Part shown: positions 4,377 to 56,993 of the stretch, in pieces
Numbering within the stretch: position 1 is the stretch's first letter
Layout of the letters: each line of letters opens with the position of its first letter
DNA from: Candidatus Aenigmatarchaeota archaeon
GTDB taxonomy: Archaea > Aenigmatarchaeota > Aenigmatarchaeia > QMZP01
Direction: 5' to 3'
DNA length: 64,000 bases
Assembly (NCBI GenBank): GCA_016783545.1
Contig: JADHWJ010000005.1
Location: 1,605-65,604 of the forward strand
The notes under the pieces: model-generated
Databases searched by the model: none
What the model was told of the DNA's origin: nothing
What the model saw: only the letters and a program-made list of their open reading frames with translations
Program-made: the position numbers and the translations under genes

Positions 4377-4393
4377 TTACCATACCTTTCAGG

Positions 4394-11300: not shown

Positions 11301-11834
11301 GTTGATTATGACTGGTATTACTTGGATGATTATGGCGCAAAAGTTTTTGAATTTACTGAAACATTAGGATCTGATGAAACAGTTGAGAGGGATTTCTCAA
11401 TAAGCGTGAACCAGCTGGGTGAAATATATTTCCCAATCAGTGTTGATTATGGGAATGAAGTGAGCCATTCAGAAACCATAATCATCACAGCTGAATGCAA
11501 CCAGAATAGTGTTTGTGAAACAGACCTTACTGAGAATTATTTCAACTGCCCGGATTGCCTGTCTGGCTCAGAAGATGGTGTCTGCGACCTAGTAAATGAC
11601 GGGATAGTGGACCCGGATTGTATAGAAGGCTCTGATTTTGACTATGTTATAGATGCCTGTTCCGATGGGATGCTGAGTGGCGATGAAGAAGGTGTAGATT
11701 GTGGTGGTACTTGTCCTGAATGCTTACCAACTACAAAAGAAGATGTTTTAAAATCAGTGAACTTTTGGATATTGGGGGAAAAGATAATACAAGATATTAT
11801 AGAAACACTTAGGCAATGGATTGGCTGGTTCTAG
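8319..11834 (+). CDS. Giant secreted protein: Cys-rich N-terminal region, transglutaminase-like core, leucine-rich repeats, Cys-rich C-terminus
   Basis: Signal-like N-terminus. Cys/His/Asp triad pattern GTCVDYS...RHAFNIV...VVDVTGN. About six LRRs (LTNLESLYLSSNQILDIDPLKTL...). C-terminal GVDCGGTCPEC motif. Confidence 0.8.
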   Translation: MNKQVITIPVILILFIYMSLMQISAQQNPCIEIDGYAEQHRDECCGQDEDEADPAFVPEYDDCTQNQPCSKEAPCMDMKKCNPETLSCGVADDTCNKGCHKNFPEECWEAPACVDGGCLPPSESVFKENVDCTHKNNGEDISFLECEKDKGKCKKKPDGWDDKTDGEWQYCQPVPKADGTVCTVDNNPCTEDVCYNGECGKPKNVGDACKITSTETSWFAPKDIGDIDGVCTTPDMFPEPFPSIESDMVCCPDEDKDGFYDDMCGGNDCDDSMTDDPYIDCPNPSIPICAKPTASCAFCTNPNSEEICANDIDENCDGITFNGVEIITTPGDGQQLRDPKHPTTVQTLTCKATIEKTPDIEKSSLGFVFDIVTPKKSYQKIMGHDEIECSDDGTVCWADHKISQTLTRLGEDVTCSVKSYRIVNGNKEYSKSCESKLAVPICPPDAGHKKIKPEEMEVDDNGNWKDQKELFTVCAPGLVKFIDEAEDSCSSKGQSEAIYKTCLMDYILKEGLGPGAKFMRGYFAQEICCKGGDFIGPAAIYHCDTVSAFGLGDFCTAKDVPENYKPLDYDSLNCIKKEDQPNKKVWITNGPGWKTKNSCYFEHLPATSSLLVLGTDKGSGQGTGTCVDYSIAVTTLLRMGGFKPNEVYTSFIIRHAFNIVKKPGEEKFSVVDVTGNKPPYAYEKMPGDMCLIKDIMNDVKKMTLNIAENDYNLFVKGCLPEGTIVCENIKYNAVTSGGEIKLSPDSQKTLENEIKKNGDVELENIEDLKCLTSLKLKFLSISNIDPLKTLTNLESLYLSSNQILDIDPLKTLTGLRYLHLSNNQYQDDKLSNIDPLKTLTSLRHLKLNSNQISDIDPLKTLTNLEYLALYYNQISDIDPLKTLTNLKELYLYGNQISPQDCADLENYFKGKGQPVIIDGCPTTQPPITGNMITGNTIQKAAPSEIFSFEVSEPELSDSEKIYDIMITLRNPHDSETDITYFVDQLNFEMETIPNVDYDWYYLDDYGAKVFEFTETLGSDETVERDFSISVNQLGEIYFPISVDYGNEVSHSETIIITAECNQNSVCETDLTENYFNCPDCLSGSEDGVCDLVNDGIVDPDCIEGSDFDYVIDACSDGMLSGDEEGVDCGGTCPECLPTTKEDVLKSVNFWILGEKIIQDIIETLRQWIGWF
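10620..11010 (+). repeat. In-frame periodic DNA repeat encoding the LRR units
   Basis: gacccRctgaaaacNctRacaaRNctt recurs at about 10671, 10737, 10818, 10884 and 10950, a spacing of 66, 81, 66 and 66 nt. Confidence 0.8.
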
Positions 11835-14375: not shown

Positions 14376-16004
14376 CTATGCTGCTTCTATATAGACAGGG
14401 GTCTTTCCCAGCTTGATTTTTATGGGATTACCTCTTATTTCCTCAGATTTGAAGTCTTTATTATACTTTACCTCAGCACCAACTGCTTTCTTTGGAATAG
14501 TTTCTGTGACCAAAGCGCTGTCAAAATTCAGTCTGATTTCTGACTGTTTCTTTTCAATACAGTCTTTCTCACATTTATTCACACAGTTATCCATTCCCAT
14601 ATAATCTCCCTTATTTTCATTTATGCAGCTATTAACGCATTTTTCATTTCTTGGGCATTTTTTCCACCAGTCCCACCAGGCAACAATCACTGTTTTCCCA
14701 TTTTTGCTGAATTTGTATGCATATGCATCCTTGGGCGTGTTGATAGTTTCGATATTATCCCAATCAGAGCCTCTTAACATCTCTATGAGTTTCTTAAAAG
14801 AATAATAGCTGAGTTTTTTTACACCCCATCCAGGATCTGGGCAGGGATTCCAGGTCTTGGGGTCGCATTTTTCATCCCCTTTTCCGTTTGGGACTCCATT
14901 ATAAATTAGTCCCATGTTATTGAATTTCACATGTAGGTCACCCTGATATATATCATGCTCGAAAATGGTTGACCAAGGAATTTTCTTTGCACCGTTTGCG
15001 ATATTAAAAACAAATTTCTTGACAAGATATTCTGCTTGGTCATGTTCGGTCTGGTAGGTGCTCATAAATTCTTTTCTTTCTTCAAGGTCTATGCCAGTGT
15101 ATGTTGCACCAGCTCTTATCAGAACCTCTTTTTCTCCATAGTCGTATTTCTCTAGGAAATCATAGATATCCTGAACAGTAACATCCTTTAGGTTATTTTG
15201 GTAGGTGTGGAGCCATCCAAACCAGTGATTCTCAAAGTAATCAAAAACAGCGTATTCGGTATCTGAAGCTTTTAGTTCCTTAAAAACTGCTTCATAGAAA
15301 ATTATATCACCACTGTTTGGGGTAAGAATATCAAAGCCTTCTGCCAGTCCGCCCAGAACGATTTTTGATTTGGGCGATAGTTTTCTTATAATCTCAGCAG
15401 AATCAACAGCAAAATTCACATAGGCTTTGGCAGCACTTTCAGTGTCTCCAAACGTTGATTTATACTCTGATTTTATCTCATTGAAGAGGTTCCATCTCGC
15501 GACATACCATTCAGGATTATTAGATTTCTTTTTTCCATAATCATTCACATGGTTTATAAGGGCTGTCAGATAGTTTCTGTAGGCCTGTCTTGAAACAGGG
15601 CCGTCTGGATGAAAGCTTTTTCCTCTCTCCCTTTCCTTGCCGTCAGTGAATTCGTTTTTGGTTATGGGATGCAAAACTATCCATAGGTTCGCATTTCCTT
15701 TACCAACAACCTCATCAATTAGTTTGTCAGCGTCGCTGAAATCATATCTCACTTTTTTGCATTTCTTATTTTCGCATATTTCCTCTTCTTTACGACTTAA
15801 AGAATCAACAACAAAGCCGGCTTCGCCATTGGTTTCACTTAGACCAAGATCTAATAGAACATCTCCTAATTTGTTTAGGGGTTCCCTTCCCTCATTGTGC
15901 GTGGTTGGGTTGCTTAAACCAAACGGCATTTCTGTCGATTTTTCTATCTGAACACAGCCACTGACCAGAACTAATAATATCAAACCAAAGATTATAAGTT
16001 TCAT
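14376..16004 (-). CDS. Secreted lipoprotein, clan GH-A-like glycoside hydrolase (tentative)
   Basis: Lipobox-like LVLVSGC after the signal peptide. WNLFNEI (NE acid/base-like motif) in a TIM-barrel-sized domain. Cys-rich segment near the C-terminus. Confidence 0.55.
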   Translation of the reverse strand: MKLIIFGLILLVLVSGCVQIEKSTEMPFGLSNPTTHNEGREPLNKLGDVLLDLGLSETNGEAGFVVDSLSRKEEEICENKKCKKVRYDFSDADKLIDEVVGKGNANLWIVLHPITKNEFTDGKERERGKSFHPDGPVSRQAYRNYLTALINHVNDYGKKKSNNPEWYVARWNLFNEIKSEYKSTFGDTESAAKAYVNFAVDSAEIIRKLSPKSKIVLGGLAEGFDILTPNSGDIIFYEAVFKELKASDTEYAVFDYFENHWFGWLHTYQNNLKDVTVQDIYDFLEKYDYGEKEVLIRAGATYTGIDLEERKEFMSTYQTEHDQAEYLVKKFVFNIANGAKKIPWSTIFEHDIYQGDLHVKFNNMGLIYNGVPNGKGDEKCDPKTWNPCPDPGWGVKKLSYYSFKKLIEMLRGSDWDNIETINTPKDAYAYKFSKNGKTVIVAWWDWWKKCPRNEKCVNSCINENKGDYMGMDNCVNKCEKDCIEKKQSEIRLNFDSALVTETIPKKAVGAEVKYNKDFKSEEIRGNPIKIKLGKTPVYIEAA

Positions 16005-16984: not shown

Positions 16985-17090
16985 AGCCCCTGAGGCGATT
17001 TGAACGCCTAACCTACTGCTTACGAAGCAGTTGCTCTGGAACGCAAAACTGTGTAAAAAACAGAGTTTTGTACCGTTGAGCTACAGAGGC
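16985..17090 (-). tRNA. tRNA-Thr(CGU) with a ~34-nt intron at the D-loop/D-stem junction
   Basis: Manually assembled exons:
- Acceptor GCCTCTG/CAGGGGC (one G-U pair).
- D arm GCTC-AACGGTA[intron caaaactctgttttttacacagttttgcgttcca]GAGC.
- Anticodon arm ACTGC-TTCGTAA-GCAGT.
- T arm AGGCG-TTCAAAT-CGCCT.
- Discriminator U. Confidence 0.8.
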
Positions 17091-17123: not shown

Positions 17124-18230
17124 ATGCCCGTTCCTTTCAAAAAAGCCCTTTTCTGGAAGAAATCTATTTTTAAGACAGTTCAATGTCAACTTTGCCCAAG
17201 AAATTGTAAGATAGCTGAGAACCAAAAAGGTTTTTGTAGAGTAAAGGAAAATATACAGGGTAATCTATATTCTTTGGTTTATGGAAAACCATGTTCAGTG
17301 AACGTTGATCCAATAGAAAAGAAGCCATTATTTCACTTTGCTCCTGGAACACAGTGTCTTTCAATAGCCACTGTTGGATGCAATCTTAATTGCAAATTCT
17401 GTCAGAACTGGGAGATCTCAAGAGCTGAAGAAATTACAGAAAATGAAGTGGGAGGGTTTTTGGCTCCACAGACTTTTGTTGGAAGCCCTCAGGCTCCAAA
17501 AGGCTGTGATGAAATGAACCCAGAAGCTGTTGTGGAATTTGCAAAAAAATACAATGTACCTGGAATTGCATATACATATACAGAACCCACCATAGCACTG
17601 GAATATTATTTAGATATAATGAAACTTGCAAGAAAGGAAGGTCTTTACAATATATGGGTATCTAATGGTTATATTAATCCACTTCCAGCAAAGAAGGCTG
17701 CAAGATTTTTGGATGCAATAAACATGGATCTAAAGGGAGATTCTTTCTTTTATCAAAGCCTTTGTGGAGTTCCTAATGAAAATCCAATGAAAAATGCATT
17801 GAAAATATACAAAGAAAACGGCGTTTGGATAGAAATAACTAATCTCCTAATACCTGGTTTCAATGATAAGAAAAACCATATAGAAAAACTAGTAAAATGG
17901 GTCAAATCAAATCTTGGTATTGAAACACCTATTCATTTTTCCAGGTTTTATCCTCAATATAAAATGGTAAATAAAGAAAAAACCCCTCTAGAGACATTGA
18001 AGATGGCAGCGAATGTTGCTGATGATCTCTCTATGTGGCATGTTTACTTGGGAAATATTCAAAAAAATGCTAGAGAAAGCACATATTGCCCACATTGCGG
18101 AAAACTGGTAATAGAGCGGTTTGGGTATAAAATAATGAAAATGAATTTAAAATCCCTTAATAAAAAGAACTGGAAAAAACCGAATTATATGTGTAATTTT
18201 TGTGGAAAAAAACTTTTAATATTTGGATAA
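17124..18230 (+). CDS. amrS: AmmeMemoRadiSam-system radical SAM enzyme (PFL-activase-like)
   Basis: N-terminal CQLCPRNCKI...GFCRVKEN Cys cluster plus the radical SAM motif GCNLNCKFCQNWEIS. C-terminal CPHCG...CNFCG zinc ribbon. Confidence 0.8.
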   Translation: MPVPFKKALFWKKSIFKTVQCQLCPRNCKIAENQKGFCRVKENIQGNLYSLVYGKPCSVNVDPIEKKPLFHFAPGTQCLSIATVGCNLNCKFCQNWEISRAEEITENEVGGFLAPQTFVGSPQAPKGCDEMNPEAVVEFAKKYNVPGIAYTYTEPTIALEYYLDIMKLARKEGLYNIWVSNGYINPLPAKKAARFLDAINMDLKGDSFFYQSLCGVPNENPMKNALKIYKENGVWIEITNLLIPGFNDKKNHIEKLVKWVKSNLGIETPIHFSRFYPQYKMVNKEKTPLETLKMAANVADDLSMWHVYLGNIQKNARESTYCPHCGKLVIERFGYKIMKMNLKSLNKKNWKKPNYMCNFCGKKLLIFG

Positions 18231-18284: not shown

Positions 18285-18371
18285 AAACTCTTTATTTTTG
18301 GATAAAAGCCTCTTAATCTATCGAATATAGACAAATTTTATTTAAAAACCAATTATCTATTTTATTAACAT

Positions 18372-21356
18372 ATGGTAGTGAAAATACGCAGAAAACGCAA
18401 TGTAGCAGTGTTTTTAGGGGATATAGAAAGCTCTAGCACTAAGATTAGCGAAGCATATGATGCAGGCGGTTTAGGTCTAGTAGAAAATGTTGTTGAAGTT
18501 TTTGATATGCTTTTAGGGAATGGTGTAGATGGAATGGGTGGCAACATATTAACTACAGAGGGCGATGCTTTTGTAGCTTCTATTGGTGCAAATCGTGTGG
18601 GAAATCTCACAAAGAGAGCAGATGATGTACTTTCAGCAAGCTTGCATAGATCCTTGGGGTTTGGTGATGTTTACTGTATTGAAGAATTTAATGAAGGTGG
18701 GCTTGAGTACAGATTGGTTTATGGAAGTGCAATCAGAGATGCAAAAGAAGCAAGAGGTAAAGGAATAGATGAGCTGAGAATAGGAAATAACTTTCAGGAA
18801 GCGCTTAAAACCGATAAAGAGGTCAGGAAAGTTTCTTTTGATGACATGGGTGATAGTGAAGATATTTTACCGCTTCATGTGTGTGATACAGCCATGTTTG
18901 CATGTCAAATACCACTTCCTGATAATCCAGATAATAGTAATTTAGAACAATTGGCAGGTGCCTGTTCAGCTATAAAAGGAGTTGCTGATAAAAGAGGAGG
19001 TGTTCTGCATAAAAAAATAGGAGATAATCTTCTCATATTCTTTCCATATGATAACCCAATAGAAAGTGCGGCTTTATGCGGAAGCGAGGTATTGGATATT
19101 CTAGATGATTTCGGTGAAGCAAATTATGGTGTTGTTGGTTATGGAAAATGCTTTCAGGTGGAATTCTTTGAAGATCTGTTAGGAATAGGCATACGTGAGG
19201 TTTTGGGAACAGGAATACATGAAATCTTCAATACAATCAAAGATCTGAGAAAAGGGGGTGTAAAGCCCGGGTTATTTATCAGTGAAGGTGCATATTCTGT
19301 ATCACCACCAAATATTGATTTCTATGATAGGAGCAAAAAATTCCATCGGGTGAAAGACATTTCTGAATCTGGTCATTGGGAACATCGTTTTGTTGGAAGA
19401 GAGAGTGAATTAGATGAACTAGATAACTGGTATAATGGAAATAGCTCTTTTGTAAACGTTTATGGTATATCTGGAATAGGTAAAACCACTTTTTTGAATG
19501 AATTTGTAAAGCATTTGGATGGTGTTAAAAAATATAAAATAAATAGGTTTGCTAATCTATTGGCAGAATTTGGCGTATCTATTGCAGATGCTCCAAACAT
19601 AAGGAAATTAAAGGAAGGTATATATGAGGCAATAGCTTCTAATGATGGTATTCTTGTTGTTGATGATGTTGGTATTGACAGTGATTTTATTGATTTTTTC
19701 AAATGGGTTTCGAAAAAGGAGACAAAATTAAGAACAGTGGCAATAAGCAGAGAAGATTTGGGTATAGGTACAGATGAATACAGGCTTGGGACACTTAGTA
19801 GACACGATGCATTGGAATTGGCACAGGGTGATGAAACAGTATTAAGTGAACTAAAACATACGGGATACAGCCCTGCACGTATACTTTTGAGAGCAGGAAA
19901 GGATTGGAGGGTTGCAGATGTCAAGGCTGAGATAATGGCAAGGGATGTAAGAAGCCTAAGTTTTGATGCTGCCAGGGGACTAACAAGATTAGCTGTTGCT
20001 TATGATAACAATAACATAACAGTTGAAGAAGCAGAATCTATTGGTGTTGGTTCTGAATTATTGGATGAGGCTGTTGAAAAAGGTGTTATGGTTCTGAATG
20101 ATTATTCTTATTCATTTAATGACCCAGCACTTGTTGATGTGTTAGAAGACAACATAATGCCGTCTGTCTCAGAAAAAATACACGATGAGATGTTTGATAG
20201 AATAGAGACTGAATATGAAATTGAAGTTCCGTTATCAATAGAAAGTCTAAGTGAATATGTTGCAAGATGTAAAAGAGTAATGAAAATATCAGATTTGACT
20301 GAGTTAGCAAGGCATGGGAGAGGCACTGGGAATACAATAAAACTATATGCTTCTACAATGGCTGCTGGAATAAGACTAAGAGAATTTGGGCTTTTTGGTG
20401 AATCAGAGGCTTTGTACGAAGATGCATTAGATAGACTAAGTAATTATTTCATTTTTAATAGGTTAGTAGAAGGTAATTTTGACACAGAAACATACGCTGC
20501 TTTTCATGCATATGTTGGTATGTTGAGCGGTCTTACAAGAGTATGTTCTGATATGGACAAATATGAGAAAACAGATACTATTTGTAAACGTGGAATAAAA
20601 ACAACTGAGACTGTGCTGAGAAATATCAATACTAATGACCCTAAACATTCGAAATTCCTAAAAAGAGGGGAACAATTGCTGTTCGACTCTCTTCATAAAC
20701 GAGGGGTATGTAGTTTTGCTAGTATGGATTACACTTCAGCAGAAGCTGACTTTTTATCTGCATTGCACCACCTTGAAAGGATATCTGAAATAGATCCGGA
20801 TTCATATCAATATTTGCAAGAGACTGGTCTAAAGATACATAATTCTCTTGGAAGGTTATTTGAGATGCAGGGCATGTATGAAGAGGCTAGGGAAGAATAC
20901 GTGTTTGCATATGAATCAGCAAATAGTTCTGGAAACCCAATAACTAGTGTAAAGGCTGGGTTATATCTTGATACAATGAATATGGTATTGGGTAGAGATA
21001 GTGATTGTTCTGAAGATGCTGAAATAATGCTTAAAAAAAGATTATCTAAAGGTGACAGAGTACAGATATATGATCTCTTGACAAGAAAATATCTTGTTCA
21101 TGCAAGCAGGTTATCTGGTCCAAAAAGAGAGAAAACGTTAGGACTTGCAGAGAGATGTGTTAAAAAAGTTATTACAATGGAAAGAGATGCTGAGAATGAA
21201 TATGCATATAAAGTTGCAAAGGTTATGCAATCAGCCATAAACTTGGTTTCTGGTAGAGATGGGGAAGGCTTTTATAATTTGAGAGAAGAGCTACAACAGG
21301 ACGATAGATTTGGAATACTTGATTATATAGATAGAATAGTATCTTTATATGATTAA
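18372..21356 (+). CDS. Tandem class-III-cyclase-like domains, STAND P-loop NTPase, TPR-like helical repeats
   Basis: CHD-like 1: VAVFLGDIESSS...TTEGDAFVASIG. CHD-like 2: AMFACQIPL...KKIGDNLLIFF (first metal Asp missing). Walker A VYGISGIGKTTFLNEF and Walker B ILVVDDVG. The C-terminal ~400 aa is helical-repeat rich. Confidence 0.7.
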   Translation: MVVKIRRKRNVAVFLGDIESSSTKISEAYDAGGLGLVENVVEVFDMLLGNGVDGMGGNILTTEGDAFVASIGANRVGNLTKRADDVLSASLHRSLGFGDVYCIEEFNEGGLEYRLVYGSAIRDAKEARGKGIDELRIGNNFQEALKTDKEVRKVSFDDMGDSEDILPLHVCDTAMFACQIPLPDNPDNSNLEQLAGACSAIKGVADKRGGVLHKKIGDNLLIFFPYDNPIESAALCGSEVLDILDDFGEANYGVVGYGKCFQVEFFEDLLGIGIREVLGTGIHEIFNTIKDLRKGGVKPGLFISEGAYSVSPPNIDFYDRSKKFHRVKDISESGHWEHRFVGRESELDELDNWYNGNSSFVNVYGISGIGKTTFLNEFVKHLDGVKKYKINRFANLLAEFGVSIADAPNIRKLKEGIYEAIASNDGILVVDDVGIDSDFIDFFKWVSKKETKLRTVAISREDLGIGTDEYRLGTLSRHDALELAQGDETVLSELKHTGYSPARILLRAGKDWRVADVKAEIMARDVRSLSFDAARGLTRLAVAYDNNNITVEEAESIGVGSELLDEAVEKGVMVLNDYSYSFNDPALVDVLEDNIMPSVSEKIHDEMFDRIETEYEIEVPLSIESLSEYVARCKRVMKISDLTELARHGRGTGNTIKLYASTMAAGIRLREFGLFGESEALYEDALDRLSNYFIFNRLVEGNFDTETYAAFHAYVGMLSGLTRVCSDMDKYEKTDTICKRGIKTTETVLRNINTNDPKHSKFLKRGEQLLFDSLHKRGVCSFASMDYTSAEADFLSALHHLERISEIDPDSYQYLQETGLKIHNSLGRLFEMQGMYEEAREEYVFAYESANSSGNPITSVKAGLYLDTMNMVLGRDSDCSEDAEIMLKKRLSKGDRVQIYDLLTRKYLVHASRLSGPKREKTLGLAERCVKKVITMERDAENEYAYKVAKVMQSAINLVSGRDGEGFYNLREELQQDDRFGILDYIDRIVSLYD

Positions 21357-21357: not shown

Positions 21358-22266
21358 TTACACAGGTACGTCACCAGAATCTCCTTCTGGAAGAGATGCT
21401 ATTTGTTCTGCTGTACAAGGATTTCCATACGCATCAAGGGTACCATCGCCTAAAATGCTGCCCTCGCATGGATTAGTTCCAATACATTCTGGCTGGTTTG
21501 GATCAATTTCACAATCTGCAGGTATTGTTGTGTATGTACAAGAACCATCATCCATTGTTGCTTGTGGGTTAAAGTTATTAGCTGCGGGGTCAATGCATCC
21601 AGAATATGTACAAGAACCATCATCCATATTAGCAATTGAGTTATAGTTATTAGCTGATGGGTCAGTACATCCAGAATATGTACAAGAACCATCATCCATT
21701 GTTGCTTGTGGGTTAAAGTTATTAGCTGCGGGGTCAATGCATCCAGAATATGTACAAGAACCATCATCCATTGTTGCTTGTGGGTTAAAGTTATTAGCTG
21801 AAGTATCCATACAACCAGAGTATTGACAGGAACCGTCGTCTACATTAGCCATTGAATTCCAGTTATTGGCCATGGAATCTGTACAACCTAAATATTCACA
21901 GGTTCCATCATCCATATTAGCAATTGAGTTATAGTTATTAGCTGATGGGTCAGTACATCCAGAATATTGACAAGAACCGTCATTGAAATTTGCTTGTGGA
22001 TCATAATTATCAGCATTTGGATCATCACAGCCCCAATATTCGCACATATTTGGATCATCTATATTGGCAAATGCATCATAATTATTTGCCATAGGGTCCA
22101 TACAGCCTGTTACTGGTGTTACGCACTGATCATTCTGAACCATACATGATGAACAGGAATCTCCAATAATATTACCTGTGAAATTGCCTGAAATAACGCC
22201 TAGTATTAGAATTGCAACTACAAGTAAACCAAAGAATAAAAGTTTCTGATCTTCAGTTTTTGCCAT
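21358..22266 (-). CDS. Membrane-anchored or secreted protein made of eight 24-aa two-Cys repeats (GCxDPxAxNYNxxAxxDDGSCxYS)
   Basis: N-terminal TM/signal segment (LLFFGLLVVAILILGVI). Eight consecutive repeats, followed by an acidic C-terminal tail. Confidence 0.8.
   Translation of the reverse strand: MAKTEDQKLLFFGLLVVAILILGVISGNFTGNIIGDSCSSCMVQNDQCVTPVTGCMDPMANNYDAFANIDDPNMCEYWGCDDPNADNYDPQANFNDGSCQYSGCTDPSANNYNSIANMDDGTCEYLGCTDSMANNWNSMANVDDGSCQYSGCMDTSANNFNPQATMDDGSCTYSGCIDPAANNFNPQATMDDGSCTYSGCTDPSANNYNSIANMDDGSCTYSGCIDPAANNFNPQATMDDGSCTYTTIPADCEIDPNQPECIGTNPCEGSILGDGTLDAYGNPCTAEQIASLPEGDSGDVPV
21532..22107 (-). repeat. 72-nt in-frame tandem repeat array (8 units, several near-identical)
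   Basis: For example, tgtacaagaaccatcatccattgttgcttgtgggttaaagttattagctgcggggtcaatgcatccagaatat recurs almost perfectly. It generates the spurious alternative-frame ORFs 21450..21767 and 21455..21646. Confidence 0.85.
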
Positions 22267-24016: not shown

Positions 24017-25897
24017 ATGAATAAAGCTCTATTAATTTTTACTACATTTTTATTATTATTTTCTATTTCAGGTATTGTAACCGCTGATCCTAAAATACAT
24101 GAAAAGGTAACTGTCAATGTTGAAAGTAACTTTAATAATCTTCCTATTCCAGATGCATATATAAAATTTAAAAATGCAGGCGATATATGGCATAGGGGTA
24201 TAGTAAAAAAAACAGATGGGAATGGTCAGGCCATATTTTCAAATGGTGGTGATGGGATATTTGATTATCCTGATTGTAACTCTTATTCTACTAAAGCAGA
24301 ATGTTTTTTGACAAGATATTGTCAGTGGGCTGATTCTAGTTGTTCCCACGTCAGCAGTTCAGCTATTTCTTATCCGACATGGGACATTAACTTTCCCCCT
24401 AAACTCGTGCTTAGATATAAAGATATTGTAGTGGTGCAGAGGGTATATCCAGAAACTCCAATAACGGTTCCAGGAGAATATGAAGAAACAATTAAAATAG
24501 ATGCTGGAAGAGTTCATTATTGTATAAAAGTTAATGATAATGATGGATTTTCAGTAGAAGATGCTGATGTAAGACTGAGATTTAAAAACGGTGGTATTAT
24601 GATTAATATTGGCGGTTCTATAAGAAGTGCTGGCGCAAAAATAGTATTCTATGATGGTAGGGATACGCCAGGAGTGAACGGGGAATGGTTAAGTGATTTT
24701 GCTGGCCATTGGTACTTTAAAGGAACTAGAAGTAGATATGGAAAACCAAAGGGTCATACGTTTGCTGCATATTGGTATCCTTTTAAAACAGATGAAAATG
24801 GTATGTTAGATGTAGCGGTTGATATTCCATATTGCATAAAACACAGATATGATAATACAATACATGGTCCAAATATATTACACCCTCTTGACCGTTTTCG
24901 TGGAGAATTTAAACCACTTGAGTGTTTCAGAGAGGCAGAAGCACAGGTGGTGAGAATAAATGATGGTGGCGGTGTTGATATTTTAACAAATTTTAAAAAA
25001 CTATCACATCTAAATGATTGTTCTTCAGGATATACTACATTTACTATAACTGATGAATGTTCTAAAGAATATGTATATGATATAACAGGTGGTGGAGATC
25101 ATACAAACGAGATACATGCAGAATTCATAGAAAGTGACTTGGGTTGTGTTAGATTATATGATTGGCCTGCTCTTGGTTTAAATGAAAAAATGACAGCTGA
25201 TCTCATTTATACCTGTCCTTCTGGAGAAGAAATAGAAATAGAATCATTTGAGTTTGGACCTACAACATATCAATGGTATCTAAACACTAATTGTAATACA
25301 GGTTTTGTTCTAACCAATGTAAGGAATGATATTGGCTTTGATAGGTTCAAATTAAGGGCAAAAGTAACTGGTGGTGTAAATTACAATCTCAATAAAGAAT
25401 TTACAGTACTTCCTGGAAAAAATAAAAGAAACTATCTTTATTGGCGTATATCAACAGGTATATGTGATGACCTATGTGTTAATGGCCTAGCAGAATCTGG
25501 ATTTGCAAGTTTTAGTACAGGTCTATCTAGTGTTTGGAACTGTAAAGAATCAGTATATGATATTAGCAAGAAGGGTGGTGGAGAGCCTTTAGGTGAAGTG
25601 GCATACAACAACGCTATTGAAAAACTAAAGAGCATAGCTAGGGACTCGCAGTACGAAGATGCTAGAAAGAGCTGCACAATAGAAACACATATTTCTTCAA
25701 GGGAAGAAGTAGGGCAGCCAAATATTAGAATTATAAGAATGAAATCTATTCCAAAGGTTCAGGGACATTCATCCATGGAAGATTTTTCAATTATAAGAGC
25801 AGTACTTTTTAGAAAATTGGTTCAGATTTTAAATGCAATGGTAGGGTTCACAAATCCAATACCAGACATATTCATAAGCATTGGTAGGGACATATGA
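24017..25897 (+). CDS. Secreted protein, unknown function (first of three coupled surface-protein genes)
   Basis: N-terminal signal-like segment (LLIFTTFLLLFSISGIV). Cys-containing. Its stop overlaps the next gene's start by 4 nt. Confidence 0.75.
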   Translation: MNKALLIFTTFLLLFSISGIVTADPKIHEKVTVNVESNFNNLPIPDAYIKFKNAGDIWHRGIVKKTDGNGQAIFSNGGDGIFDYPDCNSYSTKAECFLTRYCQWADSSCSHVSSSAISYPTWDINFPPKLVLRYKDIVVVQRVYPETPITVPGEYEETIKIDAGRVHYCIKVNDNDGFSVEDADVRLRFKNGGIMINIGGSIRSAGAKIVFYDGRDTPGVNGEWLSDFAGHWYFKGTRSRYGKPKGHTFAAYWYPFKTDENGMLDVAVDIPYCIKHRYDNTIHGPNILHPLDRFRGEFKPLECFREAEAQVVRINDGGGVDILTNFKKLSHLNDCSSGYTTFTITDECSKEYVYDITGGGDHTNEIHAEFIESDLGCVRLYDWPALGLNEKMTADLIYTCPSGEEIEIESFEFGPTTYQWYLNTNCNTGFVLTNVRNDIGFDRFKLRAKVTGGVNYNLNKEFTVLPGKNKRNYLYWRISTGICDDLCVNGLAESGFASFSTGLSSVWNCKESVYDISKKGGGEPLGEVAYNNAIEKLKSIARDSQYEDARKSCTIETHISSREEVGQPNIRIIRMKSIPKVQGHSSMEDFSIIRAVLFRKLVQILNAMVGFTNPIPDIFISIGRDI

Positions 25898-27528
25898 GAA
25901 AAACAAAGAATTGGAATAGGATAATCGTGGCTGTAATGATTTTAGTAGCTCTATCCATTTCAGTTTTATATGTTACTATAGCACCGCAGGGATGGTTTAT
26001 GGGAGCTGGTTTTGGAATACAAACATATCCATATCATTCTGTTTTTTGTCCTGATATACATAATGACCAAAGCATAGATCTATATTTTCCAGACCATGTT
26101 AGTAAAGATATAAGTACTGTAAATATTGAAATTAGAAATGGTGGTGGAACCGTAGAGTCTTATTCATGTCCAAAAGAACAGGATAGTCAAGGTAATGAAA
26201 TCTATTATTGTAAACCCCCATCAGGAAAGACTGTTTTTTCAGTTCCAAGATCAACATCTATTGAGCTGCATGAGTGTGTTCTTATTGTAGACTTTGTTGA
26301 TGCTGCTGGACAGGAATATCCAATGGATCTTTTTAAATTCTTTGCCACACCATGTGAAAGCGGTGCAAATCCAGATGAAGAAGGATTTTGCCCATGTTCT
26401 CAAGACCTTAGAATACCAGCACCTAGAACAAAACCTAATATGCAAATAAATCCATTTGGTCCTGGTTATGAATCAATAACAAAGCTTTTGGATAGTGATA
26501 GATGTAAAACAAATATACCTGACACATCACTTTCATGGTCATGGTGGGAGAGCAAACTATGTGGGGAAAAGGAAATATTCAGCGAAGCTGATGCACTAGA
26601 ATGTGAGAATACAAAATTTGATGATGGTGATGATGTTGAAGATTGTGAAGTTTATCCTTCTTTAGGAGGATTTAGTGATTGTGTGGGTTCTAATAGTGTT
26701 GATATTAGTAATATTGAAATAGAGCAAGGTATTAATAAAATAAATCCCAATGACAAAGGAATATATGATATTGAAAAAGAAGATACATCAATTAGTTTCT
26801 TTTTGAATGTAATGACAAATTTCAATAATCCTCAAAGTGTACCTGAATACAAACTCAAAATTGAAAATCTATTAAGATATAATGATAGAGATGTGGATGA
26901 TGATTTTGAAGTTAAATTGAAATCACCGATTATAGACGGGACTTCAGGATCCTGTACCTTTGCAACAACAAATCAAATCCCTTTTGATATGTGGATGCAT
27001 ATCTATCACTGCCAATTTGATATTAGAGCTCCTACAGATATCGCTCCTGGAACTGAGATAGATATTACAGATAATAGCAATACTGAAACAAAATCATTTT
27101 TAGAGCTTGGTAATGATATTGCATTACCAATTGAGATTGAGGTTGAAGCATATAAAAGTACAACAGCGATATATGATTTCAAGAGCATTGGTTATATCAG
27201 TACATTAAAATTTAGGGTTTATAATATAGCTCCTGATATACAAGCAAGTACTCATGATACAGCAATTGGTTCAGATGAATTAGCTGAAGTTTTGGATGAT
27301 GCAAAAACTAATGGCGAATATGATGGAAAAAACTTTGCTATATCATTTACTATAGAAGGTGGAGAAGACGTTCAGATGCCAAGTGTTCTTAAAAATGATT
27401 TTAGTACACTTAGTTCTGGAAATCCTTTAGCTGTGAACACTATTGACAATAATGTGGTTAGTGGTGTTAATACTCAGATTGAAAATGATTTAAAAACTAT
27501 TACAAGGGTTGATATATTCCATGGATAA
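25894..27528 (+). CDS. Membrane-anchored extracellular protein, unknown function
   Basis: N-terminal TM (IIVAVMILVALSISVLYV). Acidic, Cys-containing ectodomain. Overlaps both neighbouring genes. Confidence 0.75.
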   Translation: MRKTKNWNRIIVAVMILVALSISVLYVTIAPQGWFMGAGFGIQTYPYHSVFCPDIHNDQSIDLYFPDHVSKDISTVNIEIRNGGGTVESYSCPKEQDSQGNEIYYCKPPSGKTVFSVPRSTSIELHECVLIVDFVDAAGQEYPMDLFKFFATPCESGANPDEEGFCPCSQDLRIPAPRTKPNMQINPFGPGYESITKLLDSDRCKTNIPDTSLSWSWWESKLCGEKEIFSEADALECENTKFDDGDDVEDCEVYPSLGGFSDCVGSNSVDISNIEIEQGINKINPNDKGIYDIEKEDTSISFFLNVMTNFNNPQSVPEYKLKIENLLRYNDRDVDDDFEVKLKSPIIDGTSGSCTFATTNQIPFDMWMHIYHCQFDIRAPTDIAPGTEIDITDNSNTETKSFLELGNDIALPIEIEVEAYKSTTAIYDFKSIGYISTLKFRVYNIAPDIQASTHDTAIGSDELAEVLDDAKTNGEYDGKNFAISFTIEGGEDVQMPSVLKNDFSTLSSGNPLAVNTIDNNVVSGVNTQIENDLKTITRVDIFHG

Positions 27529-29125
27529 TAAAATATTTTTCGGTGTGGCAGGTCTGGTTTTTATATTACTAGCACTACCTGTATATGCAACAGATGTTTC
27601 TGTTGATGTGTTAACTGTTTTACCAGATACAATAACCTCCCCGCAAGAATTCAGTATAGATGTTAACATAACAAATATAGATGAACTTGAACCAGCATGG
27701 GATATGAATGTGGTAATAGAAGGATTTATACTGGAAACAGGTGATTATTATTTAATCAATAAAACAAACATAAGTGTTCTATATACAGGTGACAGTGTTC
27801 TTTTAGAAGATATTGTATGGAATGTTAATAAGTCAGGTGAACATCTTCTTATAGTATCAGCAAGCCTGGAATATGATATAAATCGCAGTAATAATATAGT
27901 TACTAAAACCCTGAATTTCACTCCAGATGGTATGGATATAGCCACTGAAATTGTTTATGATGATATATTAAAATTGGGCGAGAGGAATATTATTCCTATA
28001 TATTTGACAAATCTAGGATCAGTATCCGGTTCTGTACAAGTTATATTGAATATGCACTCTATTACTAATGAAACACTTTTTGATGAGATAATTAATGTAG
28101 AACCTGGAGAAGAGCTCTATCTATACGCTAATTCAACACCAACCACTGAAGGGCTGTATCTGTTTGAACTCATGGCTATAAACGATAGTGATGTTATTCA
28201 AGAAAATAATTTTCAAAATAAGACATTAACAACTGTTGAAAATCCAACTATTGATATATTTGTAACAGATAGAAATGACAATAATGTTGCTGATAATATA
28301 TATGTGGAAATACCAGATTACCTGATTAATCAACATGTAGAGAATAATATCTCTTTAGAACTTCCTGAAATAGGACACAATTTTTATTTGAAAAAATACC
28401 ATGAAAATACTGCTGTTGTTATCATAACATTTGATGATGTATATCCAAACGAAACAATGAGACTTGTATTTGAAGATGTGGTAGAGACAGAATTGGAGAT
28501 AATTGGTTTCAAGCCTAGCTGGAATTATTCTAAAATAAATATATACATACTAGGTGCGAATCAATATCTAGAAAATATAAGTAATATAGATCTGCATATC
28601 TGTTCTGCATGGAATTTTGGATCAAATACCTGTTCTAATTGGCAGCAGATTGAACCAACTATTGAACAGACCATACTATTTTATAGTAGTATTGAGATGA
28701 TACAAGGACTAAAACTTACTGAGAACATAACACATGAATCTGAGCCAGTAACACAAGGAACACCCGGTAGCACAGGAACCACAGCACCTCCAAGTGGCGG
28801 CGTAATACCACAGACACCTAATACAACCAATACAACTAATGTTACTACTAATGTTACTACTAATATAACAGAGCCTGTAGCAAATATAACAGCACCAGTA
28901 TGCGCTGAAGGTGACAGGGTCTGTGCAGGGAATAGTCTTCAAACATGTAAAAACAATGAATGGAAAATAGATGTTTGTCCTAATGGTTGTAATAGTCTAA
29001 CAAAAGTCTGTAAAGAAAAGCCAATAGAATCAATAGTACAGGATAATACATGGGTATTAGTCATTATTGGCATTGTTGTTTTGATTGTAGCAGTGATTAT
29101 GATGTTTAGAAAAAATCTATTTTAA
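27509..29125 (+). CDS. Surface protein with CARDB-like domains, Thr/Asn-rich linker, Cys knot and C-terminal TM anchor
   Basis: Signal peptide. VSVDVLTVLPDTITSPQEFSIDVNITN-type beta-sandwich repeats. Linker TPNTTNTTNVTTNVTTNITEP. Cys-rich CAEGDRVCAGNSLQTCKNNEWKIDVCPNGC. C-terminal TM helix. Confidence 0.75.
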   Translation: MIYSMDNKIFFGVAGLVFILLALPVYATDVSVDVLTVLPDTITSPQEFSIDVNITNIDELEPAWDMNVVIEGFILETGDYYLINKTNISVLYTGDSVLLEDIVWNVNKSGEHLLIVSASLEYDINRSNNIVTKTLNFTPDGMDIATEIVYDDILKLGERNIIPIYLTNLGSVSGSVQVILNMHSITNETLFDEIINVEPGEELYLYANSTPTTEGLYLFELMAINDSDVIQENNFQNKTLTTVENPTIDIFVTDRNDNNVADNIYVEIPDYLINQHVENNISLELPEIGHNFYLKKYHENTAVVIITFDDVYPNETMRLVFEDVVETELEIIGFKPSWNYSKINIYILGANQYLENISNIDLHICSAWNFGSNTCSNWQQIEPTIEQTILFYSSIEMIQGLKLTENITHESEPVTQGTPGSTGTTAPPSGGVIPQTPNTTNTTNVTTNVTTNITEPVANITAPVCAEGDRVCAGNSLQTCKNNEWKIDVCPNGCNSLTKVCKEKPIESIVQDNTWVLVIIGIVVLIVAVIMMFRKNLF

Positions 29126-56934: not shown

Positions 56935-56993
56935 AGACTATTAATAATTAGATATATTCTTATAAATTATGATTATTTTAGTACAATTGACGA

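What the first reader, a model, noticed from the sequence alone, without database searches (positions are those of the whole stretch)
18372..21356. 994-aa protein with two tandem, asymmetric class-III-cyclase-like domains fused to a STAND NTPase and TPR-like repeats
- Domain 1 keeps both metal-binding Asp contexts of class III nucleotidyl cyclases (FLGDIESS and EGDAFVA).
- Domain 2 keeps only the second (KIGDNLLIFF). The first is replaced by MFACQI. This gives an intramolecular pseudo-heterodimer like the C1/C2 arrangement of eukaryotic cyclases.
- These are followed by a P-loop (GISGIGKTTF), Walker B (ILVVDDVG) and about 400 aa of helical repeats.

An effector-like N-terminus, STAND NTPase and repeat sensor is the architecture of Avs/NLR-like immune sensors. 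Cyclase-fold enzymes are used by cyclic-nucleotide defence systems such as Pycsar. In a small AT-rich archaeon this would be an unusual signalling or immunity protein. No obvious cNMP-binding effector gene is adjacent.
Basis: partly seen in the sequence, partly recalled or inferred. Interest (0 to 1): 0.65.

Follow-up and report, generated by a model that had tools for sequence, protein, structure and literature searches.

The report
Divergent archaeal cyclase–STAND–TPR signalling protein
This is a real 994-residue archaeal gene with no close relatives anywhere, and it is most likely an extremely diverged cousin of the bacterial "adenylate cyclase + ATPase switch + TPR sensor" signalling proteins; it may carry two cyclase-like domains in tandem, as the soluble adenylyl cyclase of animals does, and nothing supports a role in antiviral immunity.

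Summary
The ORF (18372-21356, +, 994 aa) and all quoted motifs are present. The STAND NTPase is solid: PF01637 passes its cutoff, and every NOD motif is colinear with bacterial cyclase-NTPase-TPR proteins (hhalign 93.9%, E 1.6e-7, 760 columns). Residues 655-994 are TPR-like helical repeats.

The N-terminal 340 aa have no detectable homologue in 1.84 billion representatives. Both halves nevertheless score weakly, reproducibly and in register against class III cyclase profiles (7-10 bits). Shuffles almost never reach those scores with the two main profiles, and at most 2 of 1,849 natural protein tiles do. A GGDEF profile scores at chance. Domain 1 also aligns end to end with human sAC C1 (P 8e-4). 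Genuine sAC domains score 49-61 bits on the same profiles, so divergence is extreme and activity uncertain.

Domain 1 keeps only the two metal Asp. Domain 2 keeps both Asp, the Lys, Thr and Asn, but not the Arg.

The context is housekeeping, with no defence genes and no cNMP effector. The best frame is a cyclase-STAND-TPR signalling protein (Rv0386 class) with a sAC-like tandem, not an Avs/Pycsar system. It is a new variant of a known kind, of moderate interest.

The parts
18372..21356 (+). Complete coding sequence, 994 aa plus stop
   Evidence: in-frame stop immediately upstream
18393..18836 (+). Domain 1 (res 8-155): putative C1-like cyclase-homology domain. It keeps both metal Asp (D17, D65) and lacks the Lys (T61), Asn and Arg.
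   Evidence: Pfam PF00211 is the only hit, E 0.17. chd.hmm 7.5 bits and famN.hmm 9.7 bits; shuffles reaching these: 2/5000, 1/3000, 0/3000. Natural tiles reaching them: 1 and 0 of 1849. hhalign to human sAC C1 P 7.7e-4, in register, 0/150 shuffles.
18861..19346 (+). Domain 2 (res 164-325): putative cyclase-homology domain at the position the single CHD occupies in bacterial relatives. It keeps D172, K214, D218, T280 and N287. The Arg position is D291, with K290 adjacent.
   Evidence: chd.hmm 6.9 bits, CHD11 8.8 bits, famN.hmm 7.2 bits, 0 shuffles reaching any. hhalign P 0.0013, 0.0008 and 0.0028. MAFFT places 120 CHDs here with their GD Asp on D218. Colinear with P0014 up to the P-loop. Residue map.
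19377..19886 (+). Junction and STAND nucleotide-binding oligomerization domain (res 336-505): RFVGRESELDEL 339-350, Walker A GISGIGKTT 365-373, Walker B ILVVDDVG 427-434, sensor TVAISRED 455-462, GxP-type motif GYSPARI 498-504
   Evidence: PF01637 34.8 bits (cutoff 33.2) and PF13191 29.6 bits. BLASTP to the P0014 NTPase 38 bits, E 6.5e-10. Family HMM 22.8 bits. Colinear motif alignment.
19887..20333 (+). Helical region between the NOD and the repeats (res 506-654); presumably arm/winged-helix plus the first repeats, not resolved
   Evidence: Aligned colinearly with the family. AF2 predicts helices but pLDDT is below 50.
20334..21353 (+). TPR-like alpha-solenoid (res 655-994), presumed sensor
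   Evidence: AF2 without alignment gives pLDDT 58-85 and regular helix pairs. Top Foldseek hits are TPR proteins, none significant. Sub-threshold Pfam TPR_1/TPR_12/TPR_2 at 797-843. Colinear with the family TPR region, 775-977.
18336..18348 (+). AT-rich TATA-like box (TTTTATTTAAAAA) about 25-35 nt upstream of the ATG; a possible own promoter with a short or absent leader (inference only)
   Evidence: Sequence read; there is a 141-nt gap to the upstream gene. Not tested.

Best explanation
The gene encodes a highly diverged archaeal member of the cyclase-STAND-TPR class of intracellular signal-transduction proteins. Bacterial examples are ~1,100-aa plasmid- and chromosome-encoded 'adenylate/guanylate cyclase / AAA ATPase' proteins and M. 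tuberculosis Rv0386. Here the output module is two cyclase-homology domains in tandem, the arrangement known from eukaryotic soluble adenylyl cyclase.

Proposed mechanism:
1. At rest the TPR-like C-terminus and arm hold the NTPase in a closed, ADP-bound monomer.
2. Binding of an unknown ligand or protein to the TPR sensor lets the NOD exchange nucleotide and oligomerize.
3. This repositions the N-terminal cyclase module. Class III cyclases work only as dimers with the active site at the interface. Here d1 and d2 could form an intramolecular pseudo-heterodimer with one composite site: metal Asp D17 and D65 from d1, and Lys214, Thr280 and Asn287 from d2. Alternatively, d2 could pair with d2 of a neighbouring protomer.
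4. The Lys/Thr pair predicts ATP as substrate and cAMP as product.

Shown: the ORF, the STAND core and its kinship to the NTPase of cyclase fusions, and the helical C-terminus. Weakly shown: cyclase homology of d1 and d2 and the residue map. Inferred from established knowledge of STAND proteins and class III cyclases: autoinhibition, oligomerization, dimer formation, substrate and catalytic competence.
For: STAND core: PF01637 above cutoff. NTPase plus junction versus the bona fide cyclase-NTPase fusion P0014: 38 bits, E 6.5e-10. Full-length colinear match to nine bacterial cyclase-NTPase-TPR proteins: HMM 27.3 bits in three colinear pieces; hhalign 93.9%, E 1.6e-7, 760 columns. All NOD motifs are in order.

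Cyclase module: PF00211 is the only Pfam hit for d1 among 24,736 models and is in register. Two independent cyclase profiles score both halves far above shuffles and natural-protein tiles. The three best of 196 tiles from the window's own ORFs are from this protein. The GGDEF profile scores at chance. MAFFT places real CHDs on d2 without guidance. d1 aligns with sAC C1 at P 7.7e-4, in register at both Asp motifs, beta4 and alpha4. The secondary-structure order of the no-alignment AF2 model fits a beta-alpha-alpha-beta-beta-alpha-beta pattern twice, and 10 of its top 50 PDB matches are class III cyclases, none GGDEF (not significant).

Residue complementarity comes from two concordant alignments. 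Precedents: sAC has C1, C2 and a STAND module (PMC12802110); Rv0386, Rv1358 and Rv2488c have cyclase, MalT-type ATPase and TPR (bioRxiv 10.1101/2024.03.06.583649); the mechanism of STAND proteins with TPR sensors is described in PMC6468293.
Against: - No curated threshold is met for the cyclase domains: 11.9 bits against 21.9 for d1, nothing for d2.
- Genuine, already divergent sAC C1 and C2 score 49-61 bits on the same profiles where d1 and d2 score 7-10.
- At plain BLAST level d2 gives no HSP to the P0014 cyclase domain, and d1 is no better than shuffles against 120 CHDs.
- With a smaller 11-sequence cyclase profile, d1 drops to 3.2 bits, reached by 54 of 3000 shuffles.
- d1 and d2 show no in-register similarity to each other.
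- The transition-state Arg is missing in both halves (D291 in d2), which usually cripples catalysis.
- AF2 could not fold the region (pLDDT 36.7), so fold and dimer packing are unverified.
- The protein has no homologues, so residue conservation cannot be assessed.
- No cAMP receptor was seen in the window.
Confidence: 0.45

Rival explanations
1. Same scaffold, but the cyclase-like module is a pseudo-enzyme. The two N-terminal domains descend from cyclase-homology domains and no longer make cyclic nucleotides. They would act as a nucleotide-binding or protein-interaction output or regulatory module of a STAND switch.
For: Extreme divergence: 7-10 bits against 49-61 bits for sAC C1 and C2 on the same profiles. 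The catalytic Arg is absent from both halves, and d1 also lacks the Lys and Asn. No cNMP receptor was seen in the window. In Dictyostelium sGC, some functions of the protein do not require the catalytic domain (PMC8684759).
Against: The residues that are kept are exactly the catalytic ones: both metal Asp in d1; both Asp, the Lys, Thr and Asn in d2. That is unexpected for a decayed site in such a diverged sequence. K290 next to D291 could substitute for the Arg.
Confidence: 0.2
2. The N-terminal 340 residues are not cyclase-related at all. The motif matches are chance or convergent features of small alpha/beta (ferredoxin-like) domains, and the protein is a MalT/AAA_16-type STAND NTPase with an unknown N-terminal effector.
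For: No curated threshold is met. BLAST-level similarity is absent. A few natural protein tiles reach similar scores: 1-2 of 1849. One shuffle of 5000 reached 12.9 bits. AF2 has low confidence, and its best fold matches are generic ferredoxin-like designs. The finding was selected by eye for these motifs, so some selection bias applies.
Against: Two adjacent segments independently fall in the top ~0.1% against two independently built cyclase profiles, always in the same register. The GGDEF profile, for the same fold, gives nothing. d2 sits exactly where the CHD sits in the homologous fusion family and is colinear with it. d1 matches sAC C1 over 139 columns.
Confidence: 0.2
3. One reading: an Avs/NLR-like antiviral sensor whose cyclase effector makes a cyclic-nucleotide alarm signal (Pycsar-like) for an effector encoded elsewhere.
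For: The tripartite effector-STAND-repeat layout is shared with antiviral STANDs (PMC13581612). Orphan status suggests very fast evolution, as in conflict genes. The gene appears to be a single-gene unit with its own upstream AT-rich region.
Against: There is no significant PADLOC hit and none to Pycsar cyclases. The flanks are housekeeping or surface-protein genes, with no defence island, integrase or mobile element. No cNMP-activated effector was seen in 64 kb. The closest relatives are the cyclase-NTPase-TPR signalling class, found among metabolic and regulatory genes on plasmids. The 2026 survey of about 90 defence-associated STAND families does not mention cyclase effectors in its main text. 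Many other proteins of this genome also lack Pfam hits, so orphan status is partly a property of the lineage.
Confidence: 0.1

Closest known systems
Bacterial cyclase-STAND(AAA_16/MalT-type)-TPR proteins, e.g. the plasmid-encoded ~1,050-1,340-aa 'adenylate/guanylate cyclase domain-containing protein / AAA family ATPase' of Burkholderia, Sinorhizobium, Phyllobacterium, Microvirga and Streptomyces (L091-L099), and M. tuberculosis Rv0386, Rv1358 and Rv2488c
   Same: Same order of modules and similar size. Colinear match over 760 columns (hhalign 93.9%). Identical junction (F)VGRxxEL followed by GxxGIGKT, hhhhDD, an Rpe-type sensor and a GxP motif. A TPR-like C-terminus. d2 occupies the position of their cyclase domain.
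   Different: They have one canonical cyclase domain each, scoring 129-193 bits on the same profile. Ours has two cyclase-like segments scoring 7-10 bits. Their N-terminal extensions are SAM-like or zinc-ribbon. The Mtb proteins end in a LuxR HTH, for which Pfam finds no counterpart here. The host is an archaeon. Sequence identity is ~17% over the hhalign alignment.
Eukaryotic soluble adenylyl cyclase (sAC/ADCY10, full-length isoform) and Dictyostelium sGC
   Same: Two tandem class III domains in the order Asp-donor (C1) then Lys/Thr/Asn-donor (C2), followed by a predicted STAND P-loop module (PMC12802110, PMC8684759). d1 aligns with sAC C1 in register, P 7.7e-4. Like C1, d1 has both metal Asp and a degenerate alpha4. 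Like C2, d2 carries the Lys, Thr and Asn.
   Different: sAC is ~1,600 aa and eukaryotic, and its domains are easily recognized (49-61 bits). sAC C2 has lost the beta1 Asp, whereas d2 seems to keep it (D172). sAC C2 has the Arg, while d2 has Asp291. The sAC bicarbonate-site Lys95 corresponds to Thr61 here (the role of Lys95 is from my own knowledge of sAC structures). d2 shows no direct similarity to sAC C1 or C2. Common descent of the tandem cannot be shown.
MalT-type STAND regulators with TPR sensors (E. coli MalT, Streptomyces AfsR, Pyrococcus PH0952)
   Same: An NOD-arm-TPR switch. The inducer-gated ADP/ATP exchange and multimerization mechanism is the model for steps 1-2 (PMC6468293, PMC4381067).
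   Different: Their output modules are DNA-binding domains, not cyclase-like domains. There is no detectable direct sequence match in the PDB search.
Antiviral STAND NTPases (Avs) and Pycsar cyclases
   Same: The effector-NTPase-repeat layout (Avs) and a class III-like cyclase fold used for signalling (Pycsar).
   Different: No PADLOC family match beyond the P-loop, no defence neighbourhood, and no partner effector.

Membership tests
Class III nucleotidyl cyclase catalytic domain (CHD, Pfam PF00211) | Sequence match above the curated Pfam gathering score (21.9 bits) | tested here: not met
   d1 scores 11.9 bits, E 0.17, in register with profile positions 2-69. d2 gives no hit, and the full-length protein gives no hit.
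Class III nucleotidyl cyclase catalytic domain (CHD, Pfam PF00211) | Similarity to CHD profiles above empirical null distributions, and specific relative to the related GGDEF palm family | tested here: met
   Scores are d1 7.5 and 9.7 bits, d2 6.9 and 7.2 bits. Shuffles reaching them: 0-2 of 3000-5000. Natural tiles reaching them: 0-2 of 1849. The GGDEF profile gives -1.8 and -2.5 bits, at chance. One weaker result: with an 11-sequence CHD profile, d1 scores 3.2 bits, reached by 54 of 3000 shuffles.
Class III nucleotidyl cyclase catalytic domain (CHD, Pfam PF00211) | Beta-alpha-alpha-beta-beta-alpha-beta palm fold forming a head-to-tail dimer | tested here: inconclusive
   The AF2 model without alignment has pLDDT 36.7. 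Its secondary-structure order is compatible. Foldseek gives no significant hit, and 10 of the top 50 are class III cyclases. An MSA-driven model would be circular.
Class III nucleotidyl cyclase catalytic domain (CHD, Pfam PF00211) | Two metal-binding Asp (beta1, and the beta2-beta3 hairpin) | tested here: met
By alignment only: D17 and D65 in d1, D172 and D218 in d2, with two concordant profile alignments.
Class III nucleotidyl cyclase catalytic domain (CHD, Pfam PF00211) | Substrate-specifying pair (Lys plus Asp/Thr for ATP) | tested here: met
   By alignment only: d2 has K214 and T280; d1 has T61 and R114, so the pair is absent there. The alignment around T280 has low confidence.
Class III nucleotidyl cyclase catalytic domain (CHD, Pfam PF00211) | Transition-state Asn and Arg on helix alpha4 | tested here: not met
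   N287 is present in d2, but the Arg position is D291, with K290 adjacent. d1 has neither residue. BLAST aligns alpha4 three residues differently, so this region is uncertain.
Class III nucleotidyl cyclase catalytic domain (CHD, Pfam PF00211) | Cyclase activity | not testable with these tools
   Needs an enzyme assay.
STAND NTPase, AAA_16/MalT-type clade | P-loop NTPase with Walker A and Walker B, matched by a curated model | tested here: met
   PF01637 scores 34.8 bits against a cutoff of 33.2. PF13191 scores 29.6 against 32.6, just below. GISGIGKTT at 365-373 and ILVVDDVG at 427-434.
STAND NTPase, AAA_16/MalT-type clade | STAND-specific elements after Walker B (sensor Arg, GxP motif, helical arm), colinear with family members | tested here: met
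   TVAISRED aligns with lv.t.Rpe, YRLGTLSRHDALELA with l.L.pL...ea..la, and GYSPARI with GnPLf. hhalign gives 93.9%.
STAND NTPase, AAA_16/MalT-type clade | C-terminal repeat sensor | tested here: met
   Residues 655-994 are helical pairs with pLDDT 58-85, and the top fold matches are TPR proteins (not significant). Pfam TPR hits are sub-threshold.
Bacterial cyclase-STAND-TPR fusion class (Rv0386-like) | Colinear CHD - (F)VGRxxEL junction - NOD - TPR in one polypeptide of ~1,000-1,300 aa | tested here: met
   Family HMM gives three colinear pieces, 27.3 bits. hhalign gives E 1.6e-7 over residues 49-889. BLASTP to P0014 aligns 204-391 colinearly.
Bacterial cyclase-STAND-TPR fusion class (Rv0386-like) | A single canonical, readily recognizable CHD | tested here: not met
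   All nine members sampled have one CHD, scoring 129-193 bits. This protein has two segments scoring 7-10 bits.
Soluble adenylyl cyclase (sAC/ADCY10)-type tandem cyclases | Two tandem CHDs with complementary catalytic residues, followed by a STAND module | tested here: inconclusive
   The layout and residue distribution fit, and d1 matches C1 at P 7.7e-4. But d2 matches C1 and C2 only at P 0.15-0.22, and the fold is unverified.
Soluble adenylyl cyclase (sAC/ADCY10)-type tandem cyclases | Bicarbonate-site Lys in C1 (Lys95 of human sAC; from my own knowledge) | tested here: not met
   Lys95 aligns with Thr61.
Antiviral STAND (Avs) / Pycsar | Match to a defence-system protein model | tested here: not met
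   The best PADLOC hit is PDC-S27, E 1.3e-3, over the P-loop only (residues 339-381). There is no Pycsar cyclase hit at E <= 10.
Antiviral STAND (Avs) / Pycsar | Defence-island context or an adjacent cNMP-activated effector | tested here: not met
   Neighbours are HIT, tRNA, AmmeMemoRadiSam radical SAM, UMP kinase and surface proteins. The only PADLOC hit among ten neighbours is a weak generic radical-SAM match to pVip (E 1.1e-4), on the gene NCBIfam identifies as the AmmeMemoRadiSam enzyme. No cNMP, CARF, SAVED or TIR domains were found in the window.

The most novel reading that the evidence does not exclude
This is a catalytically active, prokaryotic sAC-like enzyme: an intramolecular C1/C2-type pseudo-heterodimeric class III cyclase gated by a STAND/TPR switch, in an archaeon. 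That arrangement is described so far only for eukaryotic sAC and sGC, whereas bacterial class III cyclases are described as single-domain homodimers (PMC9552081). The sequence is so diverged that standard annotation cannot see it. It would then exemplify a hidden class III lineage that could help explain how archaea make cAMP. That question is open, because very few archaeal class III cyclases are predicted and archaeal CYTH proteins appear not to be cyclases (PMC8646023).
Probability: 0.2. Interest if true: 0.7.

Novelty: new variant of a known kind. Interest (0 to 1): 0.45.

Why it matters
If the N-terminal module really is a tandem cyclase, three things follow.

1. The tandem-cyclase-plus-STAND layout of animal soluble adenylyl cyclase would not be a eukaryotic invention, or it would have arisen twice.
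2. Class III cyclases could diverge beyond the reach of Pfam-type annotation. That bears on the unresolved source of cAMP in archaea (PMC8646023).
3. It would be a compact 994-aa model for how a STAND switch controls a cyclase. That question is still unanswered even for human sAC, where no regulator specific to the full-length isoform has been found (PMC12802110).

If the module is not a cyclase, the gene is simply a lineage-specific STAND NTPase with an unknown effector, of modest interest.

Tried and rejected
- **Homologue searches:** the word-indexed search with the full-length protein returned only the protein itself. The N-terminal 340 aa gave nothing at E <= 10. An exhaustive phmmer search of 1.84 billion representatives with the N-terminus returned only itself. 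Scans of genome and metagenome contigs found nothing, nor did phage and plasmid tblastn. The exact-sequence contig look-up found nothing on record.
- **PDB sequence searches** with the whole protein and each half found nothing relevant.
- **AlphaFold2 without alignment on residues 1-340** gave pLDDT 36.7, unusable for fold assignment. Its Foldseek hits are not significant.
- **An MSA-driven AlphaFold run** using real cyclases was considered and rejected as circular. MAFFT aligns the whole cyclase block on d2, so a cyclase fold would follow by construction.
- **GGDEF/diguanylate cyclase** was tested because d1's 'AIRDAKEARGKG' resembles the GGDEF C-terminal 'A.Y.AK..GRN' motif. A profile of 11 real GGDEF domains scores both halves at chance, so this was rejected.
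- **Internal duplication:** d1 and d2 do not align with each other in register, so there is no direct evidence.
- **The BLASTP hit to P0014** (E 3e-9) at first looked like strong evidence for d2. Splitting it showed that the NTPase and junction carry about 38 of the 44.7 bits, and that the cyclase part alone gives no HSP.
- **Synteny in relatives:** the conserved upstream radical SAM gene finds only bacterial relatives at 39-47% identity, so no close genome is available.
- **pVip (viperin) reading of the upstream radical SAM:** rejected. It is the AmmeMemoRadiSam enzyme, at 321 bits against a cutoff of 220.
- **Upstream intergenic inverted repeats:** only AT-rich low-complexity matches.

Full report
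**1. Observation.** The window holds one uninterrupted ORF at 18372-21356 on the + strand, 994 aa. Its ATG lies one codon after an in-frame TAA, so the N-terminus is fixed. G+C content (~36%) matches the flanks. The host is an archaeon. The window encodes archaeal-type UMP kinase (TIGR02076, 193 bits), Nre, FtsZ, the AcnX/UbiD-type archaeal mevalonate genes, and a 106-nt tRNA that Rfam finds but ARAGORN does not, presumably because it carries an intron.

**2. The NTPase and the C-terminus are solid.** Pfam gives PF01637 (ATPase_2) at 34.8 bits against a cutoff of 33.2, and PF13191 (AAA_16) at 29.6 against 32.6, over residues 339-450. It also gives sub-threshold TPR hits at 797-843.

A genuine cyclase-NTPase fusion recovered in a search for real cyclase domains (P0014; PF00211 + PF01637 + PF13191) matches the NTPase plus junction with 38 bits, E 6.5e-10. 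Such fusions are common: 313 plasmid records hold a match covering at least 80% of P0014.

I fetched nine full-length members, 1,052-1,341 aa, annotated 'adenylate/guanylate cyclase' or 'AAA family ATPase'. Their family HMM hits the archaeal protein in three colinear pieces: the cyclase hairpin at 204-224, the junction and P-loop at 332-386 (22.8 bits), and the TPR region at 775-977. The total is 27.3 bits. hhalign gives 93.9% probability, E 1.6e-7, over 760 columns, residues 49-889.

The alignment shows every landmark of the AAA_16/MalT-type STAND core in order: RFVGRESELDEL, GISGIGKTT, ILVVDDVG, TVAISRED, YRLGTLSRHDALELA and the GxP-type GYSPARI.

AlphaFold2 without any alignment models residues 655-994 as regular helix pairs with pLDDT 58-85. 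The best PDB fold matches are TPR proteins: APC/C subunits, Ctr9, TTC7, LGN, Sec17, OGT and Tom70. None is significant.

**3. The N-terminal 340 residues are an orphan.**
- The word-indexed search of 5.8 billion proteins returns only the protein itself with the full-length query, and nothing at E <= 10 with the N-terminus.
- An exhaustive phmmer search of 1.84 billion representatives returns only the protein itself.
- Scans of genome contigs, metagenome contigs, phages and plasmids find nothing.
- PDB sequence searches find nothing.
- AlphaFold2 fails on this region, with pLDDT 36.7.

So the cyclase question had to be approached with targeted profile tests and explicit null distributions.

**4. 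Tests of the cyclase hypothesis.**

(a) *Pfam.* Scanned alone, domain 1 (d1, residues 1-156) gives exactly one hit among 24,736 Pfam models. It is PF00211, residues 4-77 on profile positions 2-69, but at only 11.9 bits, E 0.17, against a cutoff of 21.9. Domain 2 (d2) gives none.

(b) *Generic cyclase profile.* A profile built from 120 real class III domains gives the scores below, matching in register at the beta1 Asp motif and the beta2-beta3 'GD' hairpin. In a control with all long ORFs of the window, the three best of 196 tiles all come from this protein.

(c) *Fusion-class profile.* A second, independent profile built from the cyclase parts of the nine fusion proteins replicates the signal in the same register.

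(d) *Natural-protein control.* I scored 1,849 tiles from unrelated bacterial loci with both profiles.

| Test | d1 | d2 |
|---|---|---|
| 120-CHD profile, bits | 7.5 | 6.9 |
| Shuffles reaching that score | 2 of 5000; 1 of 3000 in a repeat | 0 of 5000; 0 of 3000 |
| hhalign P vs 120-CHD alignment | 0.034 | 0.0013 |
| Fusion-class CHD profile, bits | 9.7 | 7.2 |
| Shuffles reaching that score | 0 of 3000 | 0 of 3000 |
| hhalign P vs fusion-class alignment | 0.0067 | 0.0028 |
| Natural tiles reaching score, 120-CHD profile | 1 of 1849 | 2 of 1849 |
| Natural tiles reaching score, fusion-class profile | 0 of 1849 | 1 of 1849 |
| 11-sequence CHD profile, bits (shuffles reaching) | 3.2 (54 of 3000) | 8.8 (0 of 3000) |
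| GGDEF profile, bits (shuffles reaching) | -1.8 (1786 of 3000) | -2.5 (979 of 3000) |

(e) *GGDEF rival.* A profile of 11 real GGDEF domains, which share the same fold superfamily, scores both halves at chance. The signal is therefore specific to class III cyclases.

(f) *Blind placement.* MAFFT, given the 340-aa N-terminus and 120 cyclases, places the whole block on d2 with the invariant GD Asp on D218.

(g) *Comparison with human sAC.* d1 aligns end to end with sAC C1 (sequence taken from 4OYA/4CLF) at hhalign P 7.7e-4 over 139 columns, and 0 of 150 shuffles reach that score. The register holds throughout: D17 = D47, GGNILTTEGD65AF = GGDILKFAGD99AL, EGGLEYRLVYG = EE-GLDIRVKIG, and GIDELRIGNNF = AVDDVRLAQNM. 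For scale, sAC C1 against its own partner C2 gives P 3.7e-4.

(h) *Fold hints.* The secondary-structure order of the no-alignment model fits the cyclase topology twice. Ten of its top 50 PDB matches are class III cyclases and none is a GGDEF protein, but nothing there is significant.

**5. Counter-evidence.**
- No curated threshold is met.
- Genuine sAC C1 and C2 score 49-61 bits on the profiles where d1 and d2 score 7-10.
- At BLAST level, d2 gives no HSP to the P0014 cyclase domain, and d1 is no better than shuffles against the 120 cyclases.
- The apparently strong colinear HSP to P0014 (E 3e-9) owes about 38 of its 44.7 bits to the NTPase.
- d1 and d2 do not align with each other in register.
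- With the smaller 11-sequence cyclase profile, d1 drops to 3.2 bits, reached by 54 of 3000 shuffles.

I estimate about 0.75 that d2 is a cyclase-homology domain, about 0.65 for d1, and about 0.65 that both are. That figure is the sum of the three readings below that assume a cyclase-derived module (0.45 + 0.2 + 0.1, less some overlap).

**6. Residue map (by alignment, two concordant profiles).**

| Canonical position | d1 | d2 |
|---|---|---|
| Metal Asp 1 (beta1) | D17 | D172 |
| Metal Asp 2 (beta2-beta3 hairpin) | D65 | D218 |
| Adenine-specifying Lys | T61 (absent) | K214 |
| Thr/Asp specificity position, 7 residues before the Asn | R114 (absent) | T280 |
| Asn on alpha4 | absent | N287 |
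| Arg on alpha4 | absent | D291 (K290 adjacent) |

The D172-D218 spacing of 46 fits the canonical 44 better than the 40 from C178. The distribution is C1-like (d1) followed by C2-like (d2), the same order as in sAC and the membrane cyclases. The one difference is that d2 looks nearly complete. The alpha4 register is uncertain, because BLAST shifts it by three residues.

**7. Context.** Upstream on the same strand, after a 141-nt gap, lies the AmmeMemoRadiSam-system radical SAM enzyme (TIGR04337, 321 bits against 220). Its weak pVip hits are generic radical-SAM similarity. Further upstream are a tRNA and a HIT protein. Downstream are a convergent membrane-anchored Cys-rich repeat protein, a 140-aa unknown, and archaeal UMP kinase. 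No PADLOC family was found among ten neighbours apart from that generic match. No cNMP-binding, CARF, SAVED or TIR domain was found in about 40 ORFs of the window. Relatives of the radical SAM gene in 185,579 species genomes are only 39-47% identical and all bacterial, so no close genome exists for a synteny test.

**8. Interpretation.** The protein is best read as an extremely diverged archaeal member of the cyclase-STAND-TPR signalling class, with a sAC-like tandem output module. The mechanism follows established knowledge. STAND proteins with TPR sensors are autoinhibited ADP-bound monomers that multimerize on inducer binding (PMC6468293, PMC4381067). Class III cyclases are active only as dimers with interface active sites (PMC9552081). 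The predicted composite site is D17/D65 plus K214/T280/N287, and the Lys/Thr pair predicts cAMP as product. The missing Arg and the extreme divergence leave a substantial chance that the module is catalytically dead.

My confidence in each reading:

| Reading | Confidence |
|---|---|
| Active cyclase-STAND-TPR signalling protein | 0.45 |
| Pseudo-enzyme on the same scaffold | 0.2 |
| N-terminus not a cyclase at all | 0.2 |
| Antiviral sensor | 0.1 |

**9. Novelty.** The module order is known. It occurs in bacteria (Rv0386, Rv1358 and Rv2488c, bioRxiv 10.1101/2024.03.06.583649; the plasmid proteins). The tandem version occurs in eukaryotic sAC and sGC (PMC12802110, PMC8684759). Three things are new: the archaeal host, the tandem arrangement in a prokaryote (all nine bacterial members sampled have one domain), and the depth of divergence. 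Very few class III cyclases are predicted in archaea, and the source of archaeal cAMP is considered unknown (PMC8646023). That gives the finding some bearing on an open question, but the evidence rests on one orphan sequence.

Verdict: a new variant of a known kind, interest 0.45.

Noticed in passing
window 21358-22266 (-): The convergent downstream gene encodes a 302-aa protein with an N-terminal membrane anchor, followed by about 9 tandem ~24-aa Cys-rich repeats of the form GC.DP.ANN(Y/F)N..A..DDGSC.Y. It has no significant Pfam family (weak DUF6047 only).
   Followed up: partly
window 16985-17090 (-): A 106-nt tRNA found by Rfam (56.6 bits) but missed by ARAGORN, presumably because it contains an intron, as is common in archaea.
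   Followed up: no
window 17124-18230 (+); loci L010-L089: The AmmeMemoRadiSam radical SAM enzyme of this archaeon finds its best relatives (39-47% identity) exclusively in bacterial MAGs (Aminicenantes, Zixibacteria, Omnitrophota and others). Either no close archaeal genome is in the collection or the gene was transferred.
   Followed up: no
window 8319-11834 (+): A 1,171-aa protein with internalin-like leucine-rich repeats (LRR_4/LRR_8 at ~750-900), unusual in an archaeon. Its N-terminal 740 aa are unannotated.
   Followed up: no
window 34942-39570 (-): A 1,542-aa protein combining a subtilase S8 domain (233-489) with M61/M1-type metallopeptidase domains (907-1319) in one polypeptide.
   Followed up: no
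window 24017-29125 (+) and 14376-16004 (-), 29140-31131 (-): A run of large ORFs (626, 544, 538, 542 and 663 aa), with overlapping starts and stops in the + strand trio. None has a Pfam, NCBIfam or PADLOC hit. The four examined (626, 544, 538 and 542 aa) have N-terminal signal anchors and are probably lineage-specific surface proteins.
   Followed up: partly
window 56137-63132 (-): A cluster of archaeal-type mevalonate pathway genes: amino-acid-kinase-family protein (probably isopentenyl phosphate kinase), AcnX (aconitase X family), a UbiD-family decarboxylase and a GHMP kinase.
   Followed up: no
window 47209-48015 (+): A 268-aa protein fusing a staphylococcal-nuclease domain to a lamin-tail domain (LTD).
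   Followed up: no
window 934-3225 (+): A 763-aa protein with repeated MopE-type putative metal-binding motifs (PF11617, 88 bits).
   Followed up: no
locus L097 (Miltoncostaea oceani plasmid, NZ_CP064357.1 190306-194121): A member of the cyclase-NTPase-TPR class is annotated 'protein kinase' in RefSeq, although its N-terminus is a canonical class III cyclase domain (150 bits). It sits next to a gene annotated 'tail fiber domain-containing protein'.
   Followed up: no
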